A stretch of DNA of 63,425 nt, counting the filler, from Chrysochromulina tobinii (lineage: Eukaryota), in NCBI GenBank assembly GCA_001275005.1. It is 7 parts of 7 records of this genome, joined end to end, with 100 filler letters (N's around TTAATTAATTAA, not from the genome) between each part and the next. Parts side by side here need not be neighbours in the genome. Positions count along the whole stretch, not along the records: positions 25,403 to 34,597 come from JWZX01000382.1; 6 more parts are not named here. One strand, 5' to 3'. A program made the position numbers and the translations under genes. Position 1 is the first letter of the stretch. Each line of letters opens with the position of its first letter. Below are positions 2,129 through 39,092 of the stretch, in pieces. A model generated the notes under the pieces. That model worked only from the letters and a program-made list of their open reading frames with translations, did no database searches and was not told where the DNA came from.

Positions 2129-2959
2129 TTACGCGAGGAAGCCGAGGTCGTGCCCATTCTGCTTGGCGAGCTTGATGAGCGACGAGCGCAGCGTCTTCGG
2201 CGTCTCCTTGACGAACTCCTCAAAGTCGATCACTTCGTCGCCGTTGAGATCGCCACGGCCAATAATCTGATCGATCTGCTTCTTCTCAATGAATGTGAAC
2301 CCGAGCGCGTGCAGCGCGTCGCGGACCTCCTGGCGATCGAGCGTGCCGTTGCCGTCCTTGTCGGCAGCCTCGAACATGCGTCTGAGCACTAGCTGCCCGA
2401 ACGGCGTCTCGCTCGTGTCCACGAAGGCCGAGATCACCTTCGAATGCTGCGCGATCACCTCGCCACGCAGCTTGTTGAGCTCCTGCTCGCCCAGCAGCGC
2501 CTTGGCGCCAGTGACGACGGGCGCAAAGAGGCCCATCGTCGCCTGCTTGCGCTTGTCTTTCTTAATTTCCTCTATATTCTCGGCGTGCGACTGAACACCC
2601 GTTTGCGCGCTGAATTTGCGGCCATCGGGCAGCACCACAATGAAGTCCTCGGGGCTGGCCGGCGCGAGATCCTCCGGGCTGCCGATCCAGCAGCCCTGCT
2701 CGTTGCAATAGTATGCCTCGAAGGGGATGCAAGCTTCCCCTTCCTCGGAGGCCACCTCCGATTTCACTTCCTCGGTCACCTTCGAGGCGGCCATCGTAAT
2801 GGGAATCGGGGTCAGCTCAGCGCTCCACGCGAGGCCGTCGGGCAGTTGAGAGCTGCTCATGCTCACCGCGCACACGGGCGCGCGGGCCGCCGCAGCGGCG
2901 GCCGCATGGAGCGATCCGATGTGCAGCGCGGGCGTCGAGGCTCCGATCAACGCAAGCAT
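2129..2959 (-). CDS. PGR5: PGR5-like plastid protein with two inserted EF-hands
   Basis: GLFAPVV...NKLRGEVIAQHSKVISAF and the C-terminus LIKLAKQNGHDLGFLA match the two halves of PGR5. Between them lie EF-hand loops DKDGNGTLDRQE and DLNGDEVIDFEE. The N-terminus from ATG 2959 is hydrophobic and Ala-rich, like a presequence. Confidence 0.75.
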   Translation of the reverse strand: MLALIGASTPALHIGSLHAAAAAAARAPVCAVSMSSSQLPDGLAWSAELTPIPITMAASKVTEEVKSEVASEEGEACIPFEAYYCNEQGCWIGSPEDLAPASPEDFIVVLPDGRKFSAQTGVQSHAENIEEIKKDKRKQATMGLFAPVVTGAKALLGEQELNKLRGEVIAQHSKVISAFVDTSETPFGQLVLRRMFEAADKDGNGTLDRQEVRDALHALGFTFIEKKQIDQIIGRGDLNGDEVIDFEEFVKETPKTLRSSLIKLAKQNGHDLGFLA

Positions 2960-3667
2960 GTTGCTGGGTATCTGGACGATCAACGCTGCGTGTGTGGCGA
3001 CCGGGTGCTCGCGAATCGCGAATCGGAGCCGCGGGTCGCGAGCTCGCGGCGCCAGAATGAATGCGTAGGCAACTTCGAGAACGCTAAAACTCAACCCAAG
3101 CAAAACAAGCTTAGCAAGCAAGCTGTTTGGCGGAGTCTCATAATTTTATTTTTTGTGATATCATGTTGGTATCATGTGTTCCAAATAAGAGCATCATATA
3201 TCAATATCATGTCGTGCATTATGTATCATTTGGGGTGTCTCAGAGTTTCGAATCTTGGCTGACATAGGAAATTTCGAGGCCATAATTTCGAATCGTGTGT
3301 GACAAATTTCGATAAAATTTCGATTTTTTCTCTTCGATCCCGCTACTATTGTATGGCAAATTTCGTGGATTTCACAATTTCACCCCTCTTCGGAAAATTC
3401 GTTCCGTGAGCGATCTACAGAACCCCACACGCGTAACCCACACGCACTCACGCAGCGGGCGCAGCGCGGACAGAGGCTCCAGACTCAGCGCGGCACACAC
3501 TACATGTGTAACAATGTCAATATTTTACCAGACCAAATTACCCTGCTCTGTGAGGGGGGGGTCATGGAACATTCTGAATAAGCCCTTGTTACATGTACGC
3601 TCGCCCCGGCGTTGAATTGAGGTTCAGGTTCAGCCAACCCGCGCACGCTGGTTGTTCTATATGGTCA

Positions 3668-7312: not shown

Positions 7313-7451
7313 AATGTCTGAGGAGCGCGGAGCGCCGTGCAATTCGCGGTTTCGCGCGCTGAGATACAGAAACTTTTTGTTCAGGATCCGTCGGCGCTTT
7401 GACAAGTTTGGCGCGAGATACACGCGATTCCATGGCCTCCACTCCCTCCGT

Positions 7452-7551
7452 NNNNNNNNNNNNNNNNNNNNNNNNNNNNNNNNNNNNNNNNNNNNTTAAT
7501 TAATTAANNNNNNNNNNNNNNNNNNNNNNNNNNNNNNNNNNNNNNNNNNNN
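7452..7551. other. Artificial contig linker (N44-TTAATTAATTAA-N44)
   Basis: Identical 100-bp spacer carrying stop codons in all six frames. Confidence 0.97.
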
Positions 7552-7744
7552 TTGCGACTCGTCGCGGCTGCGATTGGCCGCGCCGGCCGCGCCACACGCT
7601 GCTGCCACTGCCTCTGACTGCCTTGCCGTCTTCACGACCGCCCTTCGCAAGCCCTCGCGCTTCCTGATGGCATGCGAGGGCGCGCCGTGCTGGGCGTCAC
7701 TGCAGAGCGCCAACAGCGTGCATTCCCCGTGCGCTTCGAAACAG

Positions 7745-25402: not shown

Positions 25403-25513
25403 AACCAGCTCGACACCAACCTCTCCAAGGACGGCTGGAGCGAGGAGGAGGACCGCATCCTCCTCGAGGGCCAGAATCAGCACGGCAACAAGTGGGCGGA
25501 GATCGCCAAGATG
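25403..25513 (+). CDS. Myb DNA-binding repeat fragment
   Basis: NQLDTNLSKDGWSEEEDRILLEGQNQHGNKWAEIAKM is a canonical Myb R3 segment. Confidence 0.75.
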
Positions 25514-25575
25514 CCTAACCCTAACCCTAACCCTAACCCTAACCCTAACCCTAACCCTAACCCTAACCCTAACCC
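25514..25575. repeat. Interstitial telomere-type repeat (CCCTAA) x ~10
   Basis: Perfect CCTAAC array directly after the Myb fragment. Confidence 0.92.
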
Positions 25576-25640
25576 GAACAAGGCGCCGTCTTGATTTCAC
25601 GGCGCGTCCGATGTCGGGCGAGTTTGAAAAGTGAACGAAA

Positions 25641-26300
25641 ATGATCGTCCCCAACCTAAACCCGGCGCAGATGGCTGCAGCGCGGCGGCCGATGTCGGCC
25701 TCCCTGCGCACGCCCCGCGGCGGCGACAAATCCTTCGAAAGGCTTCGCAGCGATGGGCAGGCGACGCCACGAGCCAAAGCGGTGCCCGAGGTGCCCGAGG
25801 GCCAGGAGGAGCCATGGCTCTTCCGCTTCGGCCGCAGCCTTACTACGATGGACGTGTGGAAGATGGGCTTCTCGCGAGTCATCATCTTTGGCGCGCACCA
25901 CTGGGCCGATGCGTCCACGGCCGGCGCCGAGATCGCCGAAGCCTTTGGCTCGCACGAGACACTCTCTGGCCTCTCCGCGGAGCACAAGGACAGCCTGGAG
26001 TCGATGATCTCACCTTCCTTCCTGCGCGGCGACGTGCTCATCGCCGTGCAGTGCTCGCAGTGCGCCATGCTGCCCGAAGACGAGAAGATGATGTGCATCA
26101 GCAACGCCGCGAAGCTCATCGACGCCATCTCCAACGTGTGGACGCAGTACGACCAGATGGGAGAAAATGACCTTGGAGCCGTGGTCGTCGTGACGGAGGG
26201 CCTCGAGGCCGAGACGCTCATCGCCAACTGGAGCCCAGACGACATCATCCGCTATCCCGTCACCGAACTTGACGAGGAATTTAGCGTCTTCTTCAAGTAG
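25641..26300 (+). CDS. Hypothetical protein (219 aa)
   Basis: Clean ATG-to-stop ORF with GC3-rich codons and a globular composition. No motif recognised. Confidence 0.6.
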   Translation: MIVPNLNPAQMAAARRPMSASLRTPRGGDKSFERLRSDGQATPRAKAVPEVPEGQEEPWLFRFGRSLTTMDVWKMGFSRVIIFGAHHWADASTAGAEIAEAFGSHETLSGLSAEHKDSLESMISPSFLRGDVLIAVQCSQCAMLPEDEKMMCISNAAKLIDAISNVWTQYDQMGENDLGAVVVVTEGLEAETLIANWSPDDIIRYPVTELDEEFSVFFK

Positions 26301-27365
26301 CTCAGGCGGGAGGCGACCCCTTTTGGAGTGACGTAAATCGCCAGTGCTTCGGCCAGTGGTGGCCCAGTGCTTCGCAACCCGTAGGATACATGCTTCGAGC
26401 CGCAGAGGCGTGCACACGTGTGGCACTCTTGTGCCGAGCATGTCGTGTTTGTCGTTCATGCTGTACACGGCGTAGTGGATGCTGGGGGTGTCGTGTGTAG
26501 TGGTGCGCTGCTCGGCTTCTGTGGTGCACGTTCCTCCCGGAGGCGCTGCAGAGGAGGGTATGTGCTGCTATGGAGCATGGTAGAGCGGCTGCCATACTGG
26601 GCGGTGTCTCGCCAGACTGGGGTGTGCGGGGGGCGCTAGAGGCTACACGACACGTATCGTCGGCGACACAACTTAGACACAGAACCCGCGGACATCGGTC
26701 ATCGCAAATCGGCATTTCAAATCCGCGGTTTACCGACATCCGCGTCAAGCCTGAAGCCAATGTCCGGCAAAGGGCGCGCGGCTTCCGGACGACCGGATTA
26801 GTTATGGCCGATCCGATCTGGGGGTGGTCGATAATAAAATAACGGTTTACGGATATAAGTCGTGTATGTCGTGTATACGCCTCGCTGTCGGAGTGTCGGT
26901 CGAACTCGCGCACCGAACCGCCGCTCGGCACATCTCGGGCTCAGTCCGGTCCATGATTCATTACTCACGGATCACAATTTTACAAAGCGGTGGGGGACAG
27001 CGGATACACTGCATATCTGCACGGTTTAGTATAAGTATTTGCCACACCCACACAGCGGACGAGAACGGGCGGTATCTCGATTCCACCGAACATATCGTCG
27101 TGGAGGAGCGCCACGCCCCGCGGCCGGCAACGCTGATCTCAACAAAACAACTCGCGGAAGTGACCACATCCAATGCCCCAGCACACAGATTCTCAGAGCT
27201 CACATATTCATAGCATCATGCGCATCATCATTCTCTGAGCTGGCCGCCCAACTGGCCGGCGGCGGCGCGCGCCGTCGTGGCACGATCCTGTCGACCGCCT
27301 CGCTCTCATCATTATCTTACTCGCGGAGTGACCACATCCAATGCCCCAGTACAGATTCTCAGAGT

Positions 27366-28085
27366 TCACAGATTCATGGCATCATTTTCTGAGCTGGCCG
27401 CCCATGTGGCCGGCGGCGGCGCGCGCCGTGGTGGCACGATCTTGTCGACCTCCTCGCTCTCACCCATGATCTTGTCCGGGCGTACAAACCCACCCATATT
27501 CTCTGCGCATGCAAAGTAGCGCGTGCCCATGATCGACCCATCGTTCTTGCCAACGGGCTCCGCGTACTCCACCCCCACCCACCATCCCGGCGCAATCTCA
27601 GGGATCTTCCCAATGAATCTCACCGTTGCCCTCTTGACGTTCGCGGAGCAGGCACTCCCCACAGCGATGGTTGCAGCCACGTCGGCAAGATGCTCGTCGT
27701 CCACTACGGGCTTCGCCTTGGCTGCCTTGAACGCAGCAAATTCGGCCTTGCGTGCCTCGGCTGCTTCCTCGCTCAGCTCGACTTTTTGGACCGTGCTGAC
27801 ATCCGTCAAGGAAGCTGTGACTGCATTTGGGTCCGAGTCGAGGACGTGTACAATCCAGCGATCACAGACACCGATCGCTCCCATGGTCATTGCATCGTCG
27901 TCGAGTGCTGCAACAAACACATTGGCGCCGTCGAGGAGAGACAGATGCTGATGTTGAGGCTCAGTCCCGCAGTGGCTGACGAGCCTCTTCTTGAGAGCAG
28001 CGACTGTCATATCTGGCTGCACCTTGAGCTCAAGAAGGAATTTGTCTGTCATCGAGTGCGTGACGAAAATGGTCAACGCCGCCAT
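27366..28085 (-). CDS. TBCB: Tubulin-folding cofactor B-like (ubiquitin-like + CAP-Gly)
   Basis: N-terminal Ubl (MTVAALKKRL...CGT...HVLDSDP) and CAP-Gly WVGVEYAEPVGKNDGS...RYF...GGFVRP. Confidence 0.85.
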   Translation of the reverse strand: MAALTIFVTHSMTDKFLLELKVQPDMTVAALKKRLVSHCGTEPQHQHLSLLDGANVFVAALDDDAMTMGAIGVCDRWIVHVLDSDPNAVTASLTDVSTVQKVELSEEAAEARKAEFAAFKAAKAKPVVDDEHLADVAATIAVGSACSANVKRATVRFIGKIPEIAPGWWVGVEYAEPVGKNDGSIMGTRYFACAENMGGFVRPDKIMGESEEVDKIVPPRRAPPPATWAASSENDAMNL

Positions 28086-28312
28086 GTCTTGTCAGTCGCC
28101 AAGCACCGGGAACGACGCACGTCGGCGACGTCTGGAGTCTCCCAGAGAGGAGGAGAGCGCCAAATCCCTTGCCGTTACAGCGCGCATTCACTACTGTACA
28201 TTCTACTGTACTCTGTTCATCTCTTCGAAAACTGAGGGTTTGGACCTTGCTTTTTTTGCGAGAGGGCCTTGACTCGGAACTGGAATGGATTCGTAACGTG
28301 GTGCACATGTAC

Positions 28313-28489
28313 ATTAACGTCAGTCTGCTCTGAGGCCTAACCCCCCCGCACGCCCGCCCGCGCACACGGCGGAACCGGTCCGCGCGGGCGCCGGTCTAGA
28401 TAAATTAGATCCATAGATGTGATAGGGCTAATGGGTACACGGAAGGGAATTACGCTGGCCGACGCCCCTTGGGGCCGGCCACTACTCCC
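28313..28489. repeat. Split direct repeat, terminal copy (177 bp)
   Basis: ATTAACGTCAGTCTGCTCTGAGG...GGCCACTACTCCC, matching 32907-33083 with no mismatch found by eye. Confidence 0.95.
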
Positions 28490-28645
28490 AACCTCGTGCC
28501 GAGCGCGCCGGTACCACTTATTATGACTAGGGATACGCACCGGCGCACTCGACGAAAGAGTTACGCGATCCGTGAGGCATCGCCGTCAAAGTCGCCCAAT
28601 GCACAAAGACGTCAAAGTACAAAGTCATAGGAGAACCACAAGGAC

Positions 28646-30964
28646 TTAAGACGCCATCCGAGGGATGGCCCACCCGTCGACGCGCGGCAGTACGCATGCC
28701 CGCCACGCGGCGCCGAGACGCTCGAGGAGACGGAAGTCGCCCCGCGAGGGAAGGTCGGAGAGGTTGTCTTCCGAGTAGACAAAACCAAACCACGATTGGC
28801 ACCTCAGTGCCAAGAGCTCGACGTGCATGGCTGTGATGATGCGCGCAGAGTCGGCCTTGCCAGATGAGCCCTTGATGAGACCTGCTCGGGCGGCCCTGTT
28901 GTCGATGAAGTGGTGTACCAACCTGTCTGCAAGGACATCAGGCCAGGTGAGATAGGCACACACAGCAGCAATGAGCTCAAGTTGCGTGATGTACGTCTGC
29001 TTGAGCGCGAAATTGCGCAGAGTCGCGAGCAGCTTGCGCAGGTCCGCTGCGGCTGTGTAGAACATGCGTTGTCGTTGAGGGCACCAGACAACGACGCCAA
29101 GCTGTCCGGTTGCGCTCGCCATGTCGAAAGATGCATCAGACATGACGACAACGGCCCAATCGCGCCGTCGAAACAGGGAGTATTCGACTGGGCGCAGCCT
29201 GTCAACGACGAGGAGTAGGGCTCGTAGCGACTCATACACATCAGTGCCGGGCAAAACAGACCGACGATGTTGGACGTGCTGAAGCGGTTGAAGGATGCCG
29301 AGGCCCACGCGCCCAAAAATGGGGCAGAGAACGAAGCGAGACTTGCCAAATAGCTTGGTGGCTTGAGCGTGACGGATTGCACGTTCGCCAAAGACACCAA
29401 GCACCATCTCGCGGAGCTTCTTCTTGCGTTCCTCGGTGACGCCGAGCGTAACGACTGCACGCGTGGGAACTTGTGAGAAGTCAGAGAGGACGCCGAGATT
29501 CACGGCTGGCATGTCGAAGGAGACATGCTTAGCTTCATCGAACCCGGGGCCGAACATGTCAACGAAGGACCCAAAAGACCACTGGGCTGACGGTTGGTCG
29601 TACCACGGGCCACCGATTTGGAAGTCGTCATAGTAACCAGTCGCCGGCGTGGCGATGAGGCGCCGAGCGCAGTGGGTGTACAGGGCGGTGACGCGGTTCC
29701 AGGCGAGCACCGCCGCGTAGCATCCGAAAACGAAGGACGGCAAGAGGAAGTATTCGGGCTGCACTGTCTGTGGGTTGAAAACGCAGATAACCATGAGGCC
29801 GGGGCACCGGTTGGGCACGCGGCGAAAGGCCTTCTTGCAATCGTCGCTTCCATGACCGTAAGCATCCACGACATCACGCCGAGCAGACCCGTGTCGGGCC
29901 TCCCAGAGACCTTGTCGTATGAGTTCGTCTTGCCACCTCATCTGCGCACGCGCATACGCAGCGCATACGTGTGCAGGTGAGTCGGGCCGGATGAGTGAAA
30001 GCTTGTCCAATGTCCCAGTGATGCCGTTGATGCCATTCTCTGAACAGTCATCGATGGGGCGGATTTTTCCCTTTTGGAGAATTCCGAAGCGCCGGATAGC
30101 TCGCCAGGATCCAGGACCGTCGAGCCAGGGATGTCCGTTGAGCTCTTGTATAGAGAAGCCCCGCCAGATACCGGGTTCGGATTCGACCCCGATGCACCAG
30201 CCGTCGGCACACTCCTTAGTGGTCGCCTCCCAGACAGTACCGACGGCTTGCCATGGGTCACCAAGCTTGTCCTCGGCGGCTTTGAGCCCTCGCGCTGCCA
30301 CGGACTTGTGAAGGTACGCGTTGAAGCGCACGTTGGACTCATAGTTAAGGACGGCGTCCGCTGGGAACTCCGGTGGTTCGCCGCCGTCGGTAAAGACTCC
30401 GCAGCTGGGGATAAGCCCATGCGTCGGGAATCCTTTGAGGAAGTGACGTACGATGTAGACGTCAGGATGTTTGGTAGCGTTGACGACAAGAGCCATAAAG
30501 GCCAAGTCGTATTCGGCACATACATGTCGCACCGCTGGCGTCATGTCTTCGATCATTCGGTGCCTCAGTGGCGCTATCATGGCCTTGCAGTCTCTCAGCA
30601 AAGCCATGCGCCGATGTCTCCACGCGGCAATGTCTTCTCGCTTGCTGACAACAAATTCAATGGCTTCCAGCAAATCTCTCGGGAGGCCGAGGTCGGCTTC
30701 CTGAGCGGGGTGCGCGAGACGCTTGGCCGACTCGAGGAAGGCAAGCTTATCACCGCCGTGCCATCCCAGCGAGAAGCGCGTGGACTTGTCACGGACAGCC
30801 TGGTGAACCGCCTGTGCCGCAGGCCGCGCAGGCGGCTCGTACACCGCGGATGAGATCACCGCGACGGAGAGAAGGCGCTGCGCTTCGAGGAACGCCGCAT
30901 CAGGAACGTACCCTGCAACGCGCAAGGCGCAAAGGCGCTTGCCAGTGGGTCGCATCGTCGCCAT
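28646..30964 (-). CDS. DIRS-type reverse transcriptase + RNase H
   Basis: KIRPIDD, DCKKAFRRVP, FVFG, YYDD (29624-29635). RNase H motifs MSDAS, ITQLEL, FIDN, NLSDLPSR. The frame is open to 31153, with a likely ATG at 30964. Confidence 0.92.
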   Translation of the reverse strand: MATMRPTGKRLCALRVAGYVPDAAFLEAQRLLSVAVISSAVYEPPARPAAQAVHQAVRDKSTRFSLGWHGGDKLAFLESAKRLAHPAQEADLGLPRDLLEAIEFVVSKREDIAAWRHRRMALLRDCKAMIAPLRHRMIEDMTPAVRHVCAEYDLAFMALVVNATKHPDVYIVRHFLKGFPTHGLIPSCGVFTDGGEPPEFPADAVLNYESNVRFNAYLHKSVAARGLKAAEDKLGDPWQAVGTVWEATTKECADGWCIGVESEPGIWRGFSIQELNGHPWLDGPGSWRAIRRFGILQKGKIRPIDDCSENGINGITGTLDKLSLIRPDSPAHVCAAYARAQMRWQDELIRQGLWEARHGSARRDVVDAYGHGSDDCKKAFRRVPNRCPGLMVICVFNPQTVQPEYFLLPSFVFGCYAAVLAWNRVTALYTHCARRLIATPATGYYDDFQIGGPWYDQPSAQWSFGSFVDMFGPGFDEAKHVSFDMPAVNLGVLSDFSQVPTRAVVTLGVTEERKKKLREMVLGVFGERAIRHAQATKLFGKSRFVLCPIFGRVGLGILQPLQHVQHRRSVLPGTDVYESLRALLLVVDRLRPVEYSLFRRRDWAVVVMSDASFDMASATGQLGVVVWCPQRQRMFYTAAADLRKLLATLRNFALKQTYITQLELIAAVCAYLTWPDVLADRLVHHFIDNRAARAGLIKGSSGKADSARIITAMHVELLALRCQSWFGFVYSEDNLSDLPSRGDFRLLERLGAAWRACVLPRVDGWAIPRMAS

Positions 30965-31203
30965 CGCGACGAGGCGTCGAGAAACTTGTGGACGGACGGG
31001 ACACGGCGCGCCGTCGTGAGACGGCCGCCGAAAGTCTGAAGAGGGGCACACCCCCCCCCCTTCGGAACGTGGAGGACCCCTGTGGGGCCCTCGGATGTGT
31101 GACGTCCGCGCGCTCGGGTTCGTCAGAGCAAGTTTCTTCCAGACGAGCGGCATGGACGGGACGATCGGGCGGCGAAGGCTTGCCCGCCGCCCGAGCTATC
31201 TCG

Positions 31204-32646
31204 ATGTTATCGCGCGTGCGCCGAGTGACACACGGCCTTGTTGGCCACGTCGTCGCCTTGGGCGGCGTGGCAATCATCGGCAGCAACCCGCCCGGTGTGG
31301 CGTGTTGCGTGGCCAACCCTGCCTTCGAGAAAGAGGAGCTGGCGAAGCTCCTGGAGCTGAGTTCAATCCCGAAGAGCTGCATCCAAGACTTTGAGCGGCT
31401 CAACTTGGGAAGCATCACACGGCTCTGCAACTTCGGCGGTGGGAAGCTCGCGTTGGAGCCGCCCGACTCGGCGACAGTTGGGGTTCTGATGTCCAACCTG
31501 CGCATTGGAAGCACGCTGGCTGGTGTGGACGCGTGGCCAAACCCGAATGGTTCGGACGCAGAGAAGGTGGCGCACTCGAACCTCGCCACCAGCTTCATGG
31601 CACTGTGCCGCTACGCGTCGCAGCTGAAGGAGACAGCGCTCAGGCGAGAGCTGGAGGGCATCGGTATGTTGGTTGGAGGCTCCTCGGCGGCGAAGGTGAC
31701 GCGCGAGGAGGAAGAAAAGAAGAATCATCGCCAGAAGGCAGTGGACCTGACGAGGGATGCTTCGGTATTGTATTCGATTGACTTCGGCGAACCGTGTGAC
31801 TCGGCTGTGCTGGTCGAGACGTACCACGCGTTCGCTCGGAATCGTCTGTCAGTTGCTCACTTGAAAAGCGGCAAGTACGGCCGTCCCAGCGTCCACCTTG
31901 CGGAAAAGACGCACTTCGTGGTGGGGGAGGAGGGAACCATGAAGGAGGAGAAGCCAGAGGGGGCGATCGCCCCGTTGACGAGAAATGCGAATGTGCTCGA
32001 GCAGATCTTCAGCGTGACGGAGTCGCTGGTGATCGCCGGTCTCGAGCCAATCAACAAGAATTTGGCGCACTCGGCTGGCGTGAGCGGCGTGGTGCGCCGC
32101 GGCCAGGGCGACGAAAAGCAGGTGAACTTCGACATGACAACGAAGCTGAAGGTCGACAGGGCCTTCACTCGGCTGTCAGGTACGCTGGGGCCGAAAGAGC
32201 TGGAGATGCTGTTTGAGGACTCCTTCATATCGACGCTCGGTGGGCTGATGGCCGAGGGCCACAGTTGTGCGAGTGGGAGCCAAAATATTCTTAAGACGGC
32301 CGCGTGGATGCGCCCACGCATGCCAGAGGCTGCTGCCAAGACGCCAAACGGCGCTGGGGCGAGTACGGACGCAGCTGGGTCGACTCCTGCTACGTTGCCG
32401 AAAGCAGACAGAAACGGCGTCGTGCGAGGCGCAGACGGCGAGGTCCAGTACTACACCGCTGCGCGTTTTCAAAAGCTGCAGGCGGCTCACACTAAGCAGA
32501 TCGAGCAGATGAAGGCTTCAAAGGCTCGCATCACCAGTCAGTTCAACAGCGGCGGATCCCAGAGGGTACGCTGGGACGACCGCCGCCGCGACGAGCATCC
32601 CTACCAACAGGACGCTCGTCGTGAGCATCACCAACAGCAGCGCTGA
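31204..32646 (+). CDS. Element-encoded ~480-aa ORF, putative Gag-like, antisense to RT and YR
   Basis: Long ORF with protein-like composition enclosed between the two repeat copies. It has a basic, helical C-terminus and no CCHC knuckle. The Gag assignment is positional inference only. Confidence 0.55.
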   Translation: MLSRVRRVTHGLVGHVVALGGVAIIGSNPPGVACCVANPAFEKEELAKLLELSSIPKSCIQDFERLNLGSITRLCNFGGGKLALEPPDSATVGVLMSNLRIGSTLAGVDAWPNPNGSDAEKVAHSNLATSFMALCRYASQLKETALRRELEGIGMLVGGSSAAKVTREEEEKKNHRQKAVDLTRDASVLYSIDFGEPCDSAVLVETYHAFARNRLSVAHLKSGKYGRPSVHLAEKTHFVVGEEGTMKEEKPEGAIAPLTRNANVLEQIFSVTESLVIAGLEPINKNLAHSAGVSGVVRRGQGDEKQVNFDMTTKLKVDRAFTRLSGTLGPKELEMLFEDSFISTLGGLMAEGHSCASGSQNILKTAAWMRPRMPEAAAKTPNGAGASTDAAGSTPATLPKADRNGVVRGADGEVQYYTAARFQKLQAAHTKQIEQMKASKARITSQFNSGGSQRVRWDDRRRDEHPYQQDARREHHQQQR

Positions 32647-32906
32647 GGGCGATTCACTCCTTCTACGTTCGGAGGAGGGTGGGCGGGAGAACGCGAGGCG
32701 GGGGCGACACGTGCAGTGTCTCCGCCGCCCCGAAGGCCCTTTCGGGCCTTGAGGAAAGTGACACGTGTTCAGTCTACCTGTTCACAGAAGGTTATGAACA
32801 GGGACGAAGAATAGAGGGGGGCGGGAGGAGACGTAGCGCCAGACCGGCTGTAGGCTTCCGTTGAGCGCTGTCGTTAATAGCGCTTTGTGCAGTAGCCGTC
32901 GCTTCA

Positions 32907-33083
32907 ATTAACGTCAGTCTGCTCTGAGGCCTAACCCCCCCGCACGCCCGCCCGCGCACACGGCGGAACCGGTCCGCGCGGGCGCCGGTCTAGATAAATT
33001 AGATCCATAGATGTGATAGGGCTAATGGGTACACGGAAGGGAATTACGCTGGCCGACGCCCCTTGGGGCCGGCCACTACTCCC
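32907..33083. repeat. Split direct repeat, internal copy (177 bp)
   Basis: Matches 28313-28489. Confidence 0.95.
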
Positions 33084-33125
33084 TTAGTATCCCACAGTAT
33101 TCCTATGGGTGTACCCATTGGCCCC

Positions 33126-34544
33126 TTAGTATCCATCGAGACTGTCAGGGCTCGAGTGTTGCGACAGTGCCTGGCTCCCTGGGGGCCAGCACTCCACATA
33201 AACGACGGTGGCGTCGTCGTCATCGCTCTCTGACGACGACGCCTCGGCGCCGACTTGAGCGTCAACCTCGGCATTGCCGATGATGACATCTGTACAGCCG
33301 GCGGCGTCAGCAAAGACCTTCCAGCCGCCGACCGCGGGCAGCTTGTCAGGTCCGCCCATACGAGAGACGACCTCATGAAGGCGCTGAAGGAGTCGGCGCA
33401 GGATGTCTAGAATCCTGTCGCACTCGGCCTCACTGGCGTACATGTTGGACATCGAGCGCCGCCGGTTTGCGCACTCGACGGAAGGCGCCCACCGACCGAT
33501 CTCGTCCCGTTCCTCTTTGGAGAAACCGAGGATACGGGCGAGCGTTGGGAGGAGGTGGCGCATTGAGTGACCAGAGTACCTCTTGGCTTCGACTTCAGAC
33601 ATAGAAAGCGGCGGAAGCGTCAGGATGTGACGCATCGCCTTTATAACGTCCGAAGATCGCGCAGGTCCGGGGAGCCGCACGACCTTCGGGGAGCTGAAGT
33701 GCTGGCCGCGAGGTACGGACAGCTTCGGGAAAATGAAGTCGGGCCCACATCCGCCGAACGTTGGCGAACCCTGTGGGAGAGGGAGCCACCAGTCGGACAG
33801 CGACTGCTGCTGGACCTTGGGGGCAAAGAACGGCATCACCAAGGGCTGCCGTCGCTTGGGATGCTTGGAAGTATAGCAGGAGCCGGCAATGTAGTCAGGT
33901 CGGAGCGCAACGGAAGCCCGTTGGCAGTCTCGCAAGCGTAGCGCGGACACCGAGGCAAGCGTAAGCCCGGCCGCGTAGAGACGAACTACGGGCGCGGAGT
34001 GGTGCTTGGAGAGGCTGATGAAATGGTAGAGCATCCGTAGGGTAGTCGCGAGGGCTGGTTGCGGCGGGCGCGCTGGCAGCTGGGCGACGTTGACAAAGGC
34101 CGGTGCGTCGACGGCCAGTGGTAGCTTGAGATGATGAGCCGCGAACGCGAGCCCGTTTCGCAGCGAATTGGGGACGGTCAGACCACCCGACTTGGAACGA
34201 GAGCATTCTTGCTCATCTTGTACGAACCACGCTAAAATGCCACCCGAGCACTTCCACGTGATACGAAGGTCGGCGAAACCGTTGGACTCTAACCAACGTC
34301 CGAGCCGTATGAGCGCCCTCCGGCTATTGTCAAGGGCGCCGGCTGAGTATGAACCGAGGTGACGCGTCAAGATCGAGCGCCGCCTTTTCTCTGGGACTCG
34401 TGCCCACTCAGCGGCGTCGGTGAAGCAACAAGCCTCAGCAAGCGCCGACGTTGGAACGACGGTGAGGAGGAGATCCATGGCTCGGAGCCTCTCTGCCTCC
34501 TCAGCCGCCTCGCGGTAAACCGGGGCCGTATCCAGTTGGGACAC
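33126..34544 (-). CDS. Tyrosine recombinase
   Basis: Catalytic set LRLRD (R), TSK (K), GHSMR (HxxR), IGRW (W) and MSNMY (Y). Confidence 0.9.
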   Translation of the reverse strand: MSQLDTAPVYREAAEEAERLRAMDLLLTVVPTSALAEACCFTDAAEWARVPEKRRRSILTRHLGSYSAGALDNSRRALIRLGRWLESNGFADLRITWKCSGGILAWFVQDEQECSRSKSGGLTVPNSLRNGLAFAAHHLKLPLAVDAPAFVNVAQLPARPPQPALATTLRMLYHFISLSKHHSAPVVRLYAAGLTLASVSALRLRDCQRASVALRPDYIAGSCYTSKHPKRRQPLVMPFFAPKVQQQSLSDWWLPLPQGSPTFGGCGPDFIFPKLSVPRGQHFSSPKVVRLPGPARSSDVIKAMRHILTLPPLSMSEVEAKRYSGHSMRHLLPTLARILGFSKEERDEIGRWAPSVECANRRRSMSNMYASEAECDRILDILRRLLQRLHEVVSRMGGPDKLPAVGGWKVFADAAGCTDVIIGNAEVDAQVGAEASSSESDDDDATVVYVECWPPGSQALSQHSSPDSLDGY

Positions 34545-34597
34545 TTTTTCTCTCGTCCTATCGTCTCCTCACACTCTCTCCTCACAGCCTCTTTCAA

Positions 34598-34698: not shown

Positions 34699-35448
34699 GC
34701 GAAAACGGACGCCAAGGGCTTCGGAATCTTCAACGACACCCTTGAGGTCATCGAGGTCATCGAGGAGCCCAGCCTGCCCGTCGTGACGGCGCGGATGACG
34801 CCCATCAAGAAGTTGCCACGTGTCCTAGCCCACGCGCGCGCCGATGAGGCTGAGAGACGCATCATCGCTGAGCTAGGGGTCTGGAGAGGCTTTGGTGCGC
34901 CAGAGCCGTGGCGCCAGCGGCTCAATGTTTCCGCGGGGGGGCAGGGCGACGAGTGGGAGCGCATACGGTCCGAGGTGCTGAGAGAGGTGCGGCGGAAAAC
35001 CAAGGGCAAGGGGGGGTGCGCATGTGGGGGGTACTGTAGCCGGAGGTTCTGCCCTACATGCTGCCACAAGCAGCCGTACGCCTGCGACCACGACGGCTGC
35101 GGCAAGATCTTTGCGCAGGCGAGCCATTTCGAAGTGCACAAGCGCTCGCACACGGGCGAGAAGCCGTACGCCTGCGACCACGACGGCTGCGGCAAGATCT
35201 TTGCCCAGGCGAGCCATTTCGAAGTGCACAAGCGCTCGCACACGGGCGAGAAGCCGTTCGCCTGCGACTACGTGGGCTGCACGTATGCATGCACCACGTC
35301 GGGCAACCTCGCGGTGCACAAGCGCTCGCACACGGGCGAGAAGCCGTTCGCCTGCGACTACGTGGGCTGCACGTATGCAAGCACCCAGTCGTGCAACCTC
35401 CAGGTGCACATCAAGCGCTCGCACACGGGCGAGAAGCCGTTCGCGTAG
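34699..35448 (+). CDS. C2H2 zinc-finger protein (4 fingers, TGEKP linkers), 5'-truncated
   Basis: YACDHDGCGKIFAQASHFEVHKRSHTGEKP x2 and FACDYVGCTYA...HKRSHTGEKP x2. The frame is open from the contig start. Confidence 0.88.
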   Translation, partial: AKTDAKGFGIFNDTLEVIEVIEEPSLPVVTARMTPIKKLPRVLAHARADEAERRIIAELGVWRGFGAPEPWRQRLNVSAGGQGDEWERIRSEVLREVRRKTKGKGGCACGGYCSRRFCPTCCHKQPYACDHDGCGKIFAQASHFEVHKRSHTGEKPYACDHDGCGKIFAQASHFEVHKRSHTGEKPFACDYVGCTYACTTSGNLAVHKRSHTGEKPFACDYVGCTYASTQSCNLQVHIKRSHTGEKPFA

Positions 35449-37626: not shown

Positions 37627-37916
37627 ACACTGGTGACATTCACACTCTCTCTCTCATACTCCGCCCGTGTGCCCCTCCGCCGTGCTGGCGCAGACGCACG
37701 CCACGCGCGCAGCGGCCCTCGAGCGATCGATAAACTCCTGTCCCTCTCGTCCTCCTCGTGTGCGACGCGCAGCGTTTCGTGGTTGGCCATGCCAGCATCG
37801 TGGTTGGCCACGCCAGCAGCGCGTCGCGAGTTACGTATCTGATCGTCGAGTCCCACAACAGGAATCCCACAACAGTAGCGTGAGTGCCCGGGCAGCAAGT
37901 GTAGCGCAAGTGCCCG

Positions 37917-38323
37917 GGCATTTTGGGTCCTGCGGCATTTTGGGGTTTGCGGCATTGGGTCTCTTGTCATCCTCCGCCTATTTTGGAATCGGTCCTGCAG
38001 CATTTTGGGGTTTGCGGCATTGGGTCTTTTGTTGTCCATCGCCTATTTTGGAATCGGTCCTGCGGCATTTTGGGTCCTGCGGGATTGGGTCTTTTGTCGT
38101 CCACCGCCTATTTTGGAATCGGTCCTGTGGCATTTTGGGGTTTGCGGCATTGGGTCTTGTCGTCCATCGCCTATTTTGGAATGGGTCCTGCGGCATTTTG
38201 GGGTTTGCGGGATTGGGTCTTTTGTCGTCCATCGCCTATTTTGGAATCGGTCCTGCGGCATTTTGGGGTTTGCGGCATTGGGTCTCTTGTCGTCCATCGC
38301 CTATTTTGGAATCGGTCCTGCGG
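37917..38323. repeat. ~65-bp minisatellite, about 6 units
   Basis: Unit GGCATTTTGGGGTTTGCGGCATTGGGTCTYTTGTCGTCCATCGCCTATTTTGGAATCGGTCCTGC. Confidence 0.9.
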
Positions 38324-38366
38324 CGTAAAAAGGTCTCAGCTCAGTCTTTCTTCAAAACACGGACAA

Positions 38367-39092
38367 ATGGCAACTATGTGCGTGTACTGCCATATATTCG
38401 AGCGGCAAGATGCCCAACCAGCGACGAAGTCGTTGCCAACGAGTCACAAAGCATCGCGGCTAGGACCCCACTGTTATACTTGCCACCGCAAGTTGATGAA
38501 ATGGAGTATGTCAATCGTGCAGATCGCTCGGCTGCAGGACCTCGGTGTCGGGCCGCCGCTCAGTCAGCAACAGCGGCAGCCGAAGCATCAGCATCAGCTT
38601 CAGCACGAGCAGCCGCAGCATCCGCAGCAGCAGCATGTGCAGCACCAGCCTCAGCAGCGGCAGCAGCTCCAAAGAGGCAAGCTACCCATAGGTGGCGGCC
38701 GCATGGCATCGCCATGTGAGCCATTCCGGGCCAATCCGTATGGCATTTTCTTGCCGAACCTCAGCGGCATGGGCGGCGGCATGGGTAGTGGAGAAGGTTT
38801 GAGCGAGTACCTCGACGCGGCGACCGGGATGGCCGCGAGATGGGTGGCTCCCTCCACCAACCCCAAAAGGCTTCGTGTGGCCTGTGCCGCGGACACCGTG
38901 GTAGCGTCCGCCGTGGTGGCGTCGTCCTCCGCCGTCGCTTCCGAGATCGGCGTGGCAATGGTTCCGTCGTCGGTGAGCAGCGCGGCGCATGCGGACATGC
39001 AGGGGGAGCTCGCGCGCTCCCAACGGCAGCTGCAGGAGACGGAGGCCAAGCTGCAGGAGGTGGAACGAAGTGCGGCCGAGGCGGCTAAGGAG
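38367..39092 (+). CDS. Hypothetical protein with CxxC...CxxC, a Q-rich tract and a coiled coil; 3'-truncated
   Basis: MCVYCH...HCYTCH, and ELARSQRQLQETEAKLQEVE at the contig end. Confidence 0.4.

What the first reader, a model, noticed from the sequence alone, without database searches (positions are those of the whole stretch)
28313..34597. Tyrosine-recombinase retrotransposon with an unusual gene order: repeat, RT-RH (-), gag-like (+), repeat, YR (-)
Seen: three uninterrupted ORFs and two apparently identical 177-bp direct repeats, consistent with recent activity. RT (ATG 30964, minus) and a 480-aa ORF (ATG 31204, plus) start head-to-head about 240 bp apart. The YR lies outside the repeat-bounded unit and converges with the gag-like ORF on the internal repeat. 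Known: DIRS1, Ngaro and PAT elements normally carry gag-RT-RH-YR on one strand, the Volvox kangaroo type inverts the YR, and split repeats run A...BA...B. Inference: this is an A-[RT,gag]-BA-[YR]-B element whose B repeat is the sequence just left of 32907 and whose terminal B copy is lost in the gap. I do not recognise this layout, with gag antisense to RT and bidirectional transcription required, from described families.
Basis: partly seen in the sequence, partly recalled or inferred. Interest (0 to 1): 0.85.

Follow-up and report, generated by a model that had tools for sequence, protein, structure and literature searches.

The report
Algal retrotransposon with a backwards gene
This is a broken copy of a jumping-gene family, most likely from a haptophyte alga, that likely inserts with a tyrosine recombinase and carries its genes in an order I did not find described: recombinase first, then an internal end-joint, then a conserved gene of uncertain role pointing backwards from the reverse transcriptase.

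Summary
The layout is real and belongs to a family. A complete relative (L003, 66-70% DNA identity) reads, on the RT strand, host|P-YR-Q|P-ORF(antisense)-RT/RH-Q|host, with both repeat pairs 100% identical and ATT at all three joints. Corrections: the window's YR is not intact (211 N-terminal residues and the terminal repeat are replaced by unrelated DNA before the contig ends), the 'gap' is a contig linker, and 'gag' is unproven. The antisense ORF is conserved and under selection, but a confident model shows a SAM-like N-terminus and no capsid match. YR-first order is a circular permutation of the nematode PAT layout; the head-to-head ORF/RT pair is the new part. Extras: a covarying hairpin at the Q|P joint in five families, and contigs with permuted order (real isoforms or assembly collapse). 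Not found in nine paper searches or in this scan's earlier notes; Repbase/Dfam and a reference phylogeny were out of reach. New variant of the DIRS order.

The parts
28313..28489 (-).
   Evidence: 100% identical to 32907-33083; equivalent to L003 7449-7620; junction text
28646..30955 (-). RT/RNase H ORF, 769 aa (YYDDF; DAS..E..DN..DNLSD), no room for a methyltransferase after RH
   Evidence: 34 homologues; motif counts and 26-45 aa tail; homologue P0034 hits Pfam RVT_1 at E 2e-4; a source names P0021 RT/RNase H-like
30956..31203 (.). 248-bp spacer between the divergent starts; inferred bidirectional promoter
   Evidence: 200 bp in L003, no DNA match between the two; deleted in L002; promoter role untested
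31204..32646 (+). Conserved 480-aa ORF antisense to RT; SAM-like N-terminal domain, C-terminal coiled coil and basic tail; gag role unproven
   Evidence: 13 close and 112 profile hits; third codon positions most diverged against L003; model pLDDT 90; VIA best Z 6.4 to a SAM domain
32684..32908 (-).
   Evidence: matches L003 P at 76% over 109 bp; its last 27 bases translate to the first 9 residues of full-length sibling YRs; boundary good to about one codon
32861..32924 (-). Predicted hairpin across the Q|P joint (TTAAT pairing with ATTAA 28 nt into P), crossover core at the edge of a bulge
   Evidence: same pairing in the minimum-energy fold of the RT strand in 5 of 5 families; arm permutation test 2-5 of 120
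32907..33083 (-).
33126..34511 (-). Tyrosine recombinase ORF, 5'-truncated (residues 212-665 of the sibling protein); R..RD, SKHP, GHSxRH, RW, Y motifs present
   Evidence: Atlas features 0.97 to clusters carrying PF00589
34512..34597 (.). Unrelated sequence replacing the YR 5' part and the terminal P repeat; contig ends here
   Evidence: no match to sibling YR or to any locus or protein held apart from the same locus

Best explanation
The region is a 5'-broken copy of a split-direct-repeat retrotransposon family laid out, on the RT strand, as P-YR-Q|P-ORF(antisense)-RT/RH-Q, which likely copies itself through RNA and is predicted to insert by tyrosine recombination at an AT(T) core. Shown: the layout, the repeats, the ATT joints and selection on all three ORFs. 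Inferred from the DIRS/PAT model: a genomic RNA runs on the RT strand from inside the first P to inside the last Q; the internal Q|P joint templates the missing ends; the cDNA closes into a circle with a second Q|P joint; the YR recombines that joint, possibly folded as the conserved hairpin, with a host AT(T). Inferred from anatomy: YR is read as the first ORF, while RT and the antisense ORF need their own RNAs from the 200-250 bp spacer. The antisense ORF most likely fills the gag role (oligomerising, nucleic-acid-binding scaffold), supplied from an RNA that is not the one copied. The window copy cannot move unaided because it has lost its left end.
For: Complete relative L003 with host on both sides and both repeat pairs 100% identical. 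ATT at all three L003 joints, AT at the window's end; DIRS1-like elements mostly begin and end with ATT (PMC3266345, passages). Same order in three assemblies of this locus. All three proteins diverge together against L003 (identical aligned codons' residues: RT 550/766, YR 279/435, ORF 224/437) with third positions most changed. YR by Atlas features and motifs; RT by motifs and a Pfam bridge. The ORF is the only other conserved gene, is gag-sized (480 aa; VIPER gag-like is 492 aa, PMC6681497 section 6) and its N-terminal domain resembles SAM oligomerisation domains. Longest contigs of RT homologues cluster at 4.0-5.3 kb (16 of 32, none at 5.3-9 kb) and of YR homologues at or under 3.75 kb (30 of 37), as expected if repeats separate the two modules family-wide (indirect).
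Against: Only one complete element was seen, from a short-read metagenome contig; ORF orientation was seen in two families only. No Pfam or PHROG hit for the element's own RT or YR. No CCHC/CCCH knuckle in 121 ORF homologues, no capsid match in PDB or BFVD, and no profile match to the gag-position region of the dinoflagellate relative P0034. Three more distant loci (L005, L006, L008) have Q|P directly before YR, not host|P. No transcript, circle or empty-site data.
Confidence: 0.62

Rival explanations
1. The layout is right but the antisense ORF is an accessory (cargo) protein, possibly targeted to an organelle or membrane, and the element has no gag of its own.
For: No knuckle, no capsid fold. 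Of 23 homologues with a 20-60 aa N-terminal extension, 21 are basic and acid-poor and 13 also have a hydrophobic stretch, against 34% and 3% of 1296 control ATG-started stretches, resembling a targeting presequence. A reverse-strand extra ORF is noted for Ectocarpus Ngaro-8 (PMC12477816 supplement).
Against: 37 of 63 M-started homologues, and L003, have no such extension. Gag-like ORFs of YR elements often lack knuckles and known domains (PMC6681497 section 6; PMC4157794 passages). No other gag candidate is in the element. The test is by composition only.
Confidence: 0.22
2. The element is functionally two-part: because its circle has two identical Q|P joints, the YR module (P-YR-Q) and the ORF/RT module (P-ORF-RT-Q) are permuted, resolved and inserted separately, and the L003 order is one of several states.
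For: L005 reads RT-Q|P-YR-Q, L006 reads YR 3' end-Q|P-YR 5' end, L008 has Q|P-YR. Each module has its own P and Q.
Against: All three orders also follow from an assembler collapsing P and Q; no host-flanked single module or host-flanked permuted copy was seen among 9 loci.
Confidence: 0.12
3. The arrangement is a nested insertion, chimera or misassembly.
For: The window copy is broken at 34511 and all three assemblies end within about 110 bp of there.
Against: L003, 30-34% diverged in DNA, has the same order, repeats and joints; siblings of all three proteins are each recorded on contigs of 6844 bp.
Confidence: 0.04

Closest known systems
Nematode-form PAT elements (Panagrellus PAT; PMC4157794, passages)
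   Same: [quoted passage not shown] The layout here is the circular permutation of that order.
   Different: No methyltransferase after RH, no zinc finger, YR module first, and the gag-position ORF is inverted and divergent from RT.
kangaroo of Volvox carteri (as described in PMC4157794 and PMC3266345, passages; original paper not held)
   Same: Split direct repeats, internal pair between pol and YR, one gene inverted, no zinc finger.
   Different: In kangaroo the YR is inverted against RT; here YR and RT agree and the other ORF is inverted. kangaroo has MT.
Ngaro (PMC8547959, PMC3783388, passages; Ectocarpus families in PMC12477816 supplement)
   Same: RT/RH plus YR, split direct repeats, no MT.
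   Different: Ngaro is A-gag-RT/RH-YR-BAB with all repeats after the ORFs; here the BA joint lies between genes. Ectocarpus Ngaro-8 has one reverse-strand ORF but keeps A-int-BAB.
VIPER/TATE (PMC6681497, sections 6 and 9)
   Same: YR upstream of RT/RH, no MT, split repeats (VIPER).
   Different: gag-YR-RT/RH order with A...BAB repeats; no internal joint between genes.
SymbioDIRS of Symbiodiniaceae (PMC5890265, passages)
   Same: Order of YR and pol is shuffled between families; the most distant RT hit is a Cladocopium polyprotein, P0034 (25%, E 1.8e-14), which I read as this type from recalled motifs, untested.
   Different: A-coding-BAB repeats; DNMT in pol; no detectable homology between its N-terminal region and the antisense ORF.

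Membership tests
DIRS order (YR retrotransposons) | RT/RNase H gene | tested here: met
   Motifs conserved in 21-29 of 29 aligned proteins; homologue P0034 hits RVT_1 below the curated cut-off; no direct Pfam hit
DIRS order (YR retrotransposons) | Tyrosine recombinase instead of a DDE integrase | tested here: met
   Atlas 0.97 to PF00589-bearing clusters; catalytic motifs in 29-30 of 30; no other long ORF in L003 besides overlapping off-frames
DIRS order (YR retrotransposons) | Split direct repeats or ITR/ICR, short core shared with the target | tested here: met
   L003 P/Q pairs and ATT at three joints; empty site not seen
DIRS order (YR retrotransposons) | gag-like ORF | tested here: inconclusive
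   Conserved ORF present, no knuckle, no capsid match
Ngaro | No methyltransferase domain | tested here: met
   26-45 aa after the last RH motif in 27 of 29 proteins where the motif was found
Ngaro | A1-[gag, RT/RH, YR]-B1A2B2 order, internal repeats after YR | tested here: not met
   L003 and window
Ngaro | RT/RH clusters with Ngaro references | not testable with these tools
   No reference sequences could be fetched; the tree holds homologues only
PAT / kangaroo | Split direct repeats with internal pair between pol and YR | tested here: met
   Met up to circular permutation; L005 shows the unpermuted order, possibly by assembly
PAT / kangaroo | Methyltransferase domain after RH | tested here: not met
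kangaroo | YR inverted relative to RT | tested here: not met
   Same strand in window, L003, L005
VIPER/TATE | gag-YR-RT/RH order with A...BAB repeats | tested here: not met
DIRS1-like | Long inverted terminal repeats with an internal complementary region, MT domain | tested here: not met
   Only direct repeats by self-comparison; short 11-18 bp inverted arms at the joint

The most novel reading that the evidence does not exclude
A haptophyte clade of YR retrotransposons is built as two swappable modules, each bounded by P and Q: its circle has two usable joints, so it inserts in either permutation or as single modules; the recombinase acts on a folded single-stranded joint in the manner of an integron attC site; and gag is replaced by an antisense, SAM-domain protein made from a divergent promoter, in many members with a targeting-like presequence.
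Probability: 0.2. Interest if true: 0.85.

Novelty: new variant of a known kind. Interest (0 to 1): 0.62.

Why it matters
The replication cycle of split-repeat YR retrotransposons is still largely a model. This layout makes three parts of it testable in a cultured alga: (1) whether both Q|P joints of the circle can be used, since the two outcomes give different gene orders; (2) whether a retroelement can work when its gag-position gene is antisense to the RNA that is copied, which rules out the usual cis coupling of gag translation and packaging and should make double-stranded RNA; (3) whether the recombinase reads a folded joint, which fits the finding that DIRS-1 cDNA is mostly single-stranded (PMC7192593, passages). 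Practically, the family's RT and YR escape Pfam, so it is likely missed in haptophyte repeat annotation.

Tried and rejected
No whole genome is held for the window, so copy number and empty sites in this genome are open; no read-level or RNA data were obtained, so strand, expression and circles are open. Viral contigs: no relatives of YR, ORF or RT. Prokaryote genomes: none for RT or ORF. Pfam, PHROGs and PDB-sequence searches found nothing significant for RT, YR or the ORF family. First ORF model was poor (pLDDT 46; no match); Atlas gave nothing usable for it. The better model had no Foldseek match in PDB or BFVD; VIA's best Z of 6.4 is under the tool's bar of 8, so the SAM reading is a lead and a capsid fold is not excluded. 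An apparent by-eye likeness between the ORF and the N-terminal region of P0034 failed both profile tests and was dropped. Hairpin stability is significant in L003 and L005 (z -3.3 to -4.0), marginal in the window (-2.1 and -1.3) and not significant in L006 and L008; ungapped 18-nt arm matches against shuffles gave 312, 103, 1, 4068 and 1678 of 5000. The sequence right of 34511 matched nothing held. The RT tree (quick method, careful search unfinished, 36 rows) groups window and L003 (support 100) with Prymnesium P0021 next, and L005 with the Emiliania protein P0026, but has no named references and cannot place the family.
Full report
Observation. The window is a string of contigs joined by N-TTAATTAATTAA-N linkers; the finding lies at the right end of contig 25403-34597. 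The two 177-bp repeats are identical and end sharply. Two other assemblies of the same locus, L001 and L002, agree at over 99.9% and in order; L002 lacks about 720-730 bp covering the spacer and both start codons.

What the genes are. Pfam and PHROGs miss all three proteins and their aligned relatives. The minus-strand 769-aa ORF has 34 homologues with RT and RNase H motifs kept in 21-29 of 29 aligned rows (the upstream HPD motif in 12 of 29) and only 26-45 residues after the last RH motif, so no methyltransferase (motif names recalled). Its most distant hit, P0034 from Cladocopium, hits RVT_1 at E 2e-4, below the curated cut-off. The right ORF has 37 homologues, YR catalytic motifs in 29-30 of 30 rows, and scores 0.97 to Atlas clusters that carry PF00589 in 30-86% of members. 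Named relatives are haptophytes: Prymnesium parvum, Emiliania huxleyi and, in the 90% cluster of the plus-strand ORF, Chrysochromulina tobinii, so the host is most likely a Chrysochromulina-like haptophyte.

The layout is a family trait. A scan of metagenome contigs with the YR alignment returned 9 loci from 464 pattern matches. L003 holds a complete element, 66-70% identical to the window in DNA: P1 757-965, YR, Q1 2949-3120, P2 3118-3326, the ORF on the opposite strand, RT/RH, Q2 7449-7620, with unrelated sequence on both sides; both repeat pairs are 100% identical. Most DIRS1-like elements begin and end with ATT (PMC3266345, passages), which favours the RT strand as the sense strand. Against L003, differences are highest at third codon positions in all three ORFs (ORF 0.34/0.33/0.51; RT 0.22/0.16/0.53; YR 0.29/0.21/0.58), and the three frames antisense to the ORF hold 4, 9 and 14 stops, so it is a real gene on the opposite strand.

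The window copy is broken. Full-length sibling YRs (P0086, P0090; 665 aa) match the window only from residue 212, at 34511. In this copy the 5' part of YR and the terminal P are replaced by sequence that matches nothing held. Identical Q copies fit a young insertion, but this copy lacks an end.

The antisense ORF. It has 13 close hits and 112 profile hits, one of which (P0268) is an unrelated repeat protein. None of 121 homologues has a CCHC or CCCH knuckle; 36 family members scanned have no meaningful Pfam hit. A model from a 62-row alignment is confident (pLDDT 90, pTM 0.61) and has no Foldseek match in PDB or BFVD; VIA lists many SAM domains for residues 1-114, best Z 6.4, rmsd 3.1, 76 aligned, under the tool's bar. 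A profile test against the gag-position region of P0034 was negative. Of 63 M-started homologues, 23 have a 20-60 aa extension; 21 of these are basic and acid-poor and 13 also hydrophobic (17 and 9 of 19 after dropping four close relatives), against 34% and 3% of 1296 control stretches. L003 and 37 others lack it. 'Gag' therefore rests on size, conservation and exclusion; gag-like ORFs of VIPER also often lack knuckles and domains (PMC6681497, section 6).

The joint. In all five families with a visible Q|P joint (window, L003, L005, L006, L008), the TTAAT that ends Q has an ATTAA partner 25-43 nt into P, and the RT-strand minimum-energy folds share this stem with an inner stem and a bulge at the crossover point. 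Matching each family's arms scores better than swapped arms in all but 2-5 of 120 permutations over five arm lengths. Stability is significant in only two of five, the sample is small and the feature was picked by eye, so it is a moderate lead. It recalls, from memory, the hairpin of a DIRS1 circle junction and folded YR substrates such as attC; DIRS-1 cDNA is mostly single-stranded and linear (PMC7192593, passages).

Permuted contigs. L005 reads RT-Q|P-YR-Q, L006 reads YR 3' end-Q|P-YR 5' end, L008 has Q|P before YR. A circle of this element has two identical joints, so these could be true alternative insertions or subcircles; collapse of P and Q by an assembler explains them equally well. 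L004, L007 and L009 were uninformative. Contig sizes of homologues (RT 16 of 32 at 4.0-5.3 kb; YR 30 of 37 at or under 3.75 kb) fit repeats between the modules across the family but say nothing on orientation.

Mechanism. Shown: layout, repeats, core, selection. Inferred from the DIRS/PAT model: RT-strand RNA from P to Q, ends restored from the internal joint, circle, YR insertion at AT(T). Inferred from anatomy: divergent transcription from the spacer and an antisense scaffold protein acting in trans to the copied RNA.

Comparison. Nematode PAT and kangaroo already place the internal repeats between pol and YR, kangaroo and a Daphnia element invert the YR, and such features are homoplastic (PMC4157794, passages). 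Ngaro is A-ORFs-BAB without MT (PMC8547959 and PMC3783388, passages; PMC13465315, passages). SymbioDIRS families shuffle YR and pol order within A-coding-BAB (PMC5890265, passages). The Ectocarpus library lists A-int-BAB for its annotated DIRS families, one with a reverse-strand ORF (PMC12477816, passages and supplement file 1). A Prymnesium preprint mentions Ngaro-labelled repeats without structure (10.1101/2022.10.25.513657, one passage). Nine searches showed no description of YR-first, internal joint, inverted ORF head-to-head with RT. Not seen: the kangaroo paper, the Chlamydomonas repeat supplement of PMC8226300, Repbase, Dfam and the Poulter and Butler review; any of them could hold this layout. 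This scan's earlier notes hold no look-alike.

Verdict. Works like a split-repeat YR retrotransposon and is a member of the DIRS order; it fails a defining test for each of Ngaro, PAT, kangaroo, VIPER and DIRS1-like. New variant of a known kind; interest 0.62.

Noticed in passing
window 27366-28085 (-): Host gene with ubiquitin-like and CAP-Gly domains (tubulin-folding cofactor B type); the element ends about 230 bp upstream of its start. A 154-168 bp imperfect tandem duplication overlaps its 3' end (27150-27473).
   Followed up: no
L002 3083-3096 (window about 30877-31606): Same locus in another assembly lacks the whole divergent spacer and both start codons: an allele or an assembly slip.
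   Followed up: partly
L003 7408-7448: The first 40 or so bases of the terminal Q are duplicated in tandem just before it.
   Followed up: no
L003 600-756 and 7621-7630: The left flank is an array of short CGCAATTGCG-like units and the joined flanks resemble one more degenerate unit, a weak hint that both flanks are one site.
   Followed up: no
P0091, P0095, P0098: Sibling YRs that switch after AAHHL into another frame from further downstream: internal-deletion variants of the family.
   Followed up: no
window 25514-25579: Interstitial (CCTAAC)n telomere-like run near the start of the contig.
   Followed up: no
window 34795-35448 (+) and 37897-38389: On the next contig: a C2H2 zinc-finger array ORF and a 65-bp tandem array; unrelated to the element.
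   Followed up: no
L009 260-420: After a YR fragment, two copies of a 56-bp unit each ending in a TGTTAATT joint-like motif, then unrelated sequence.
   Followed up: no
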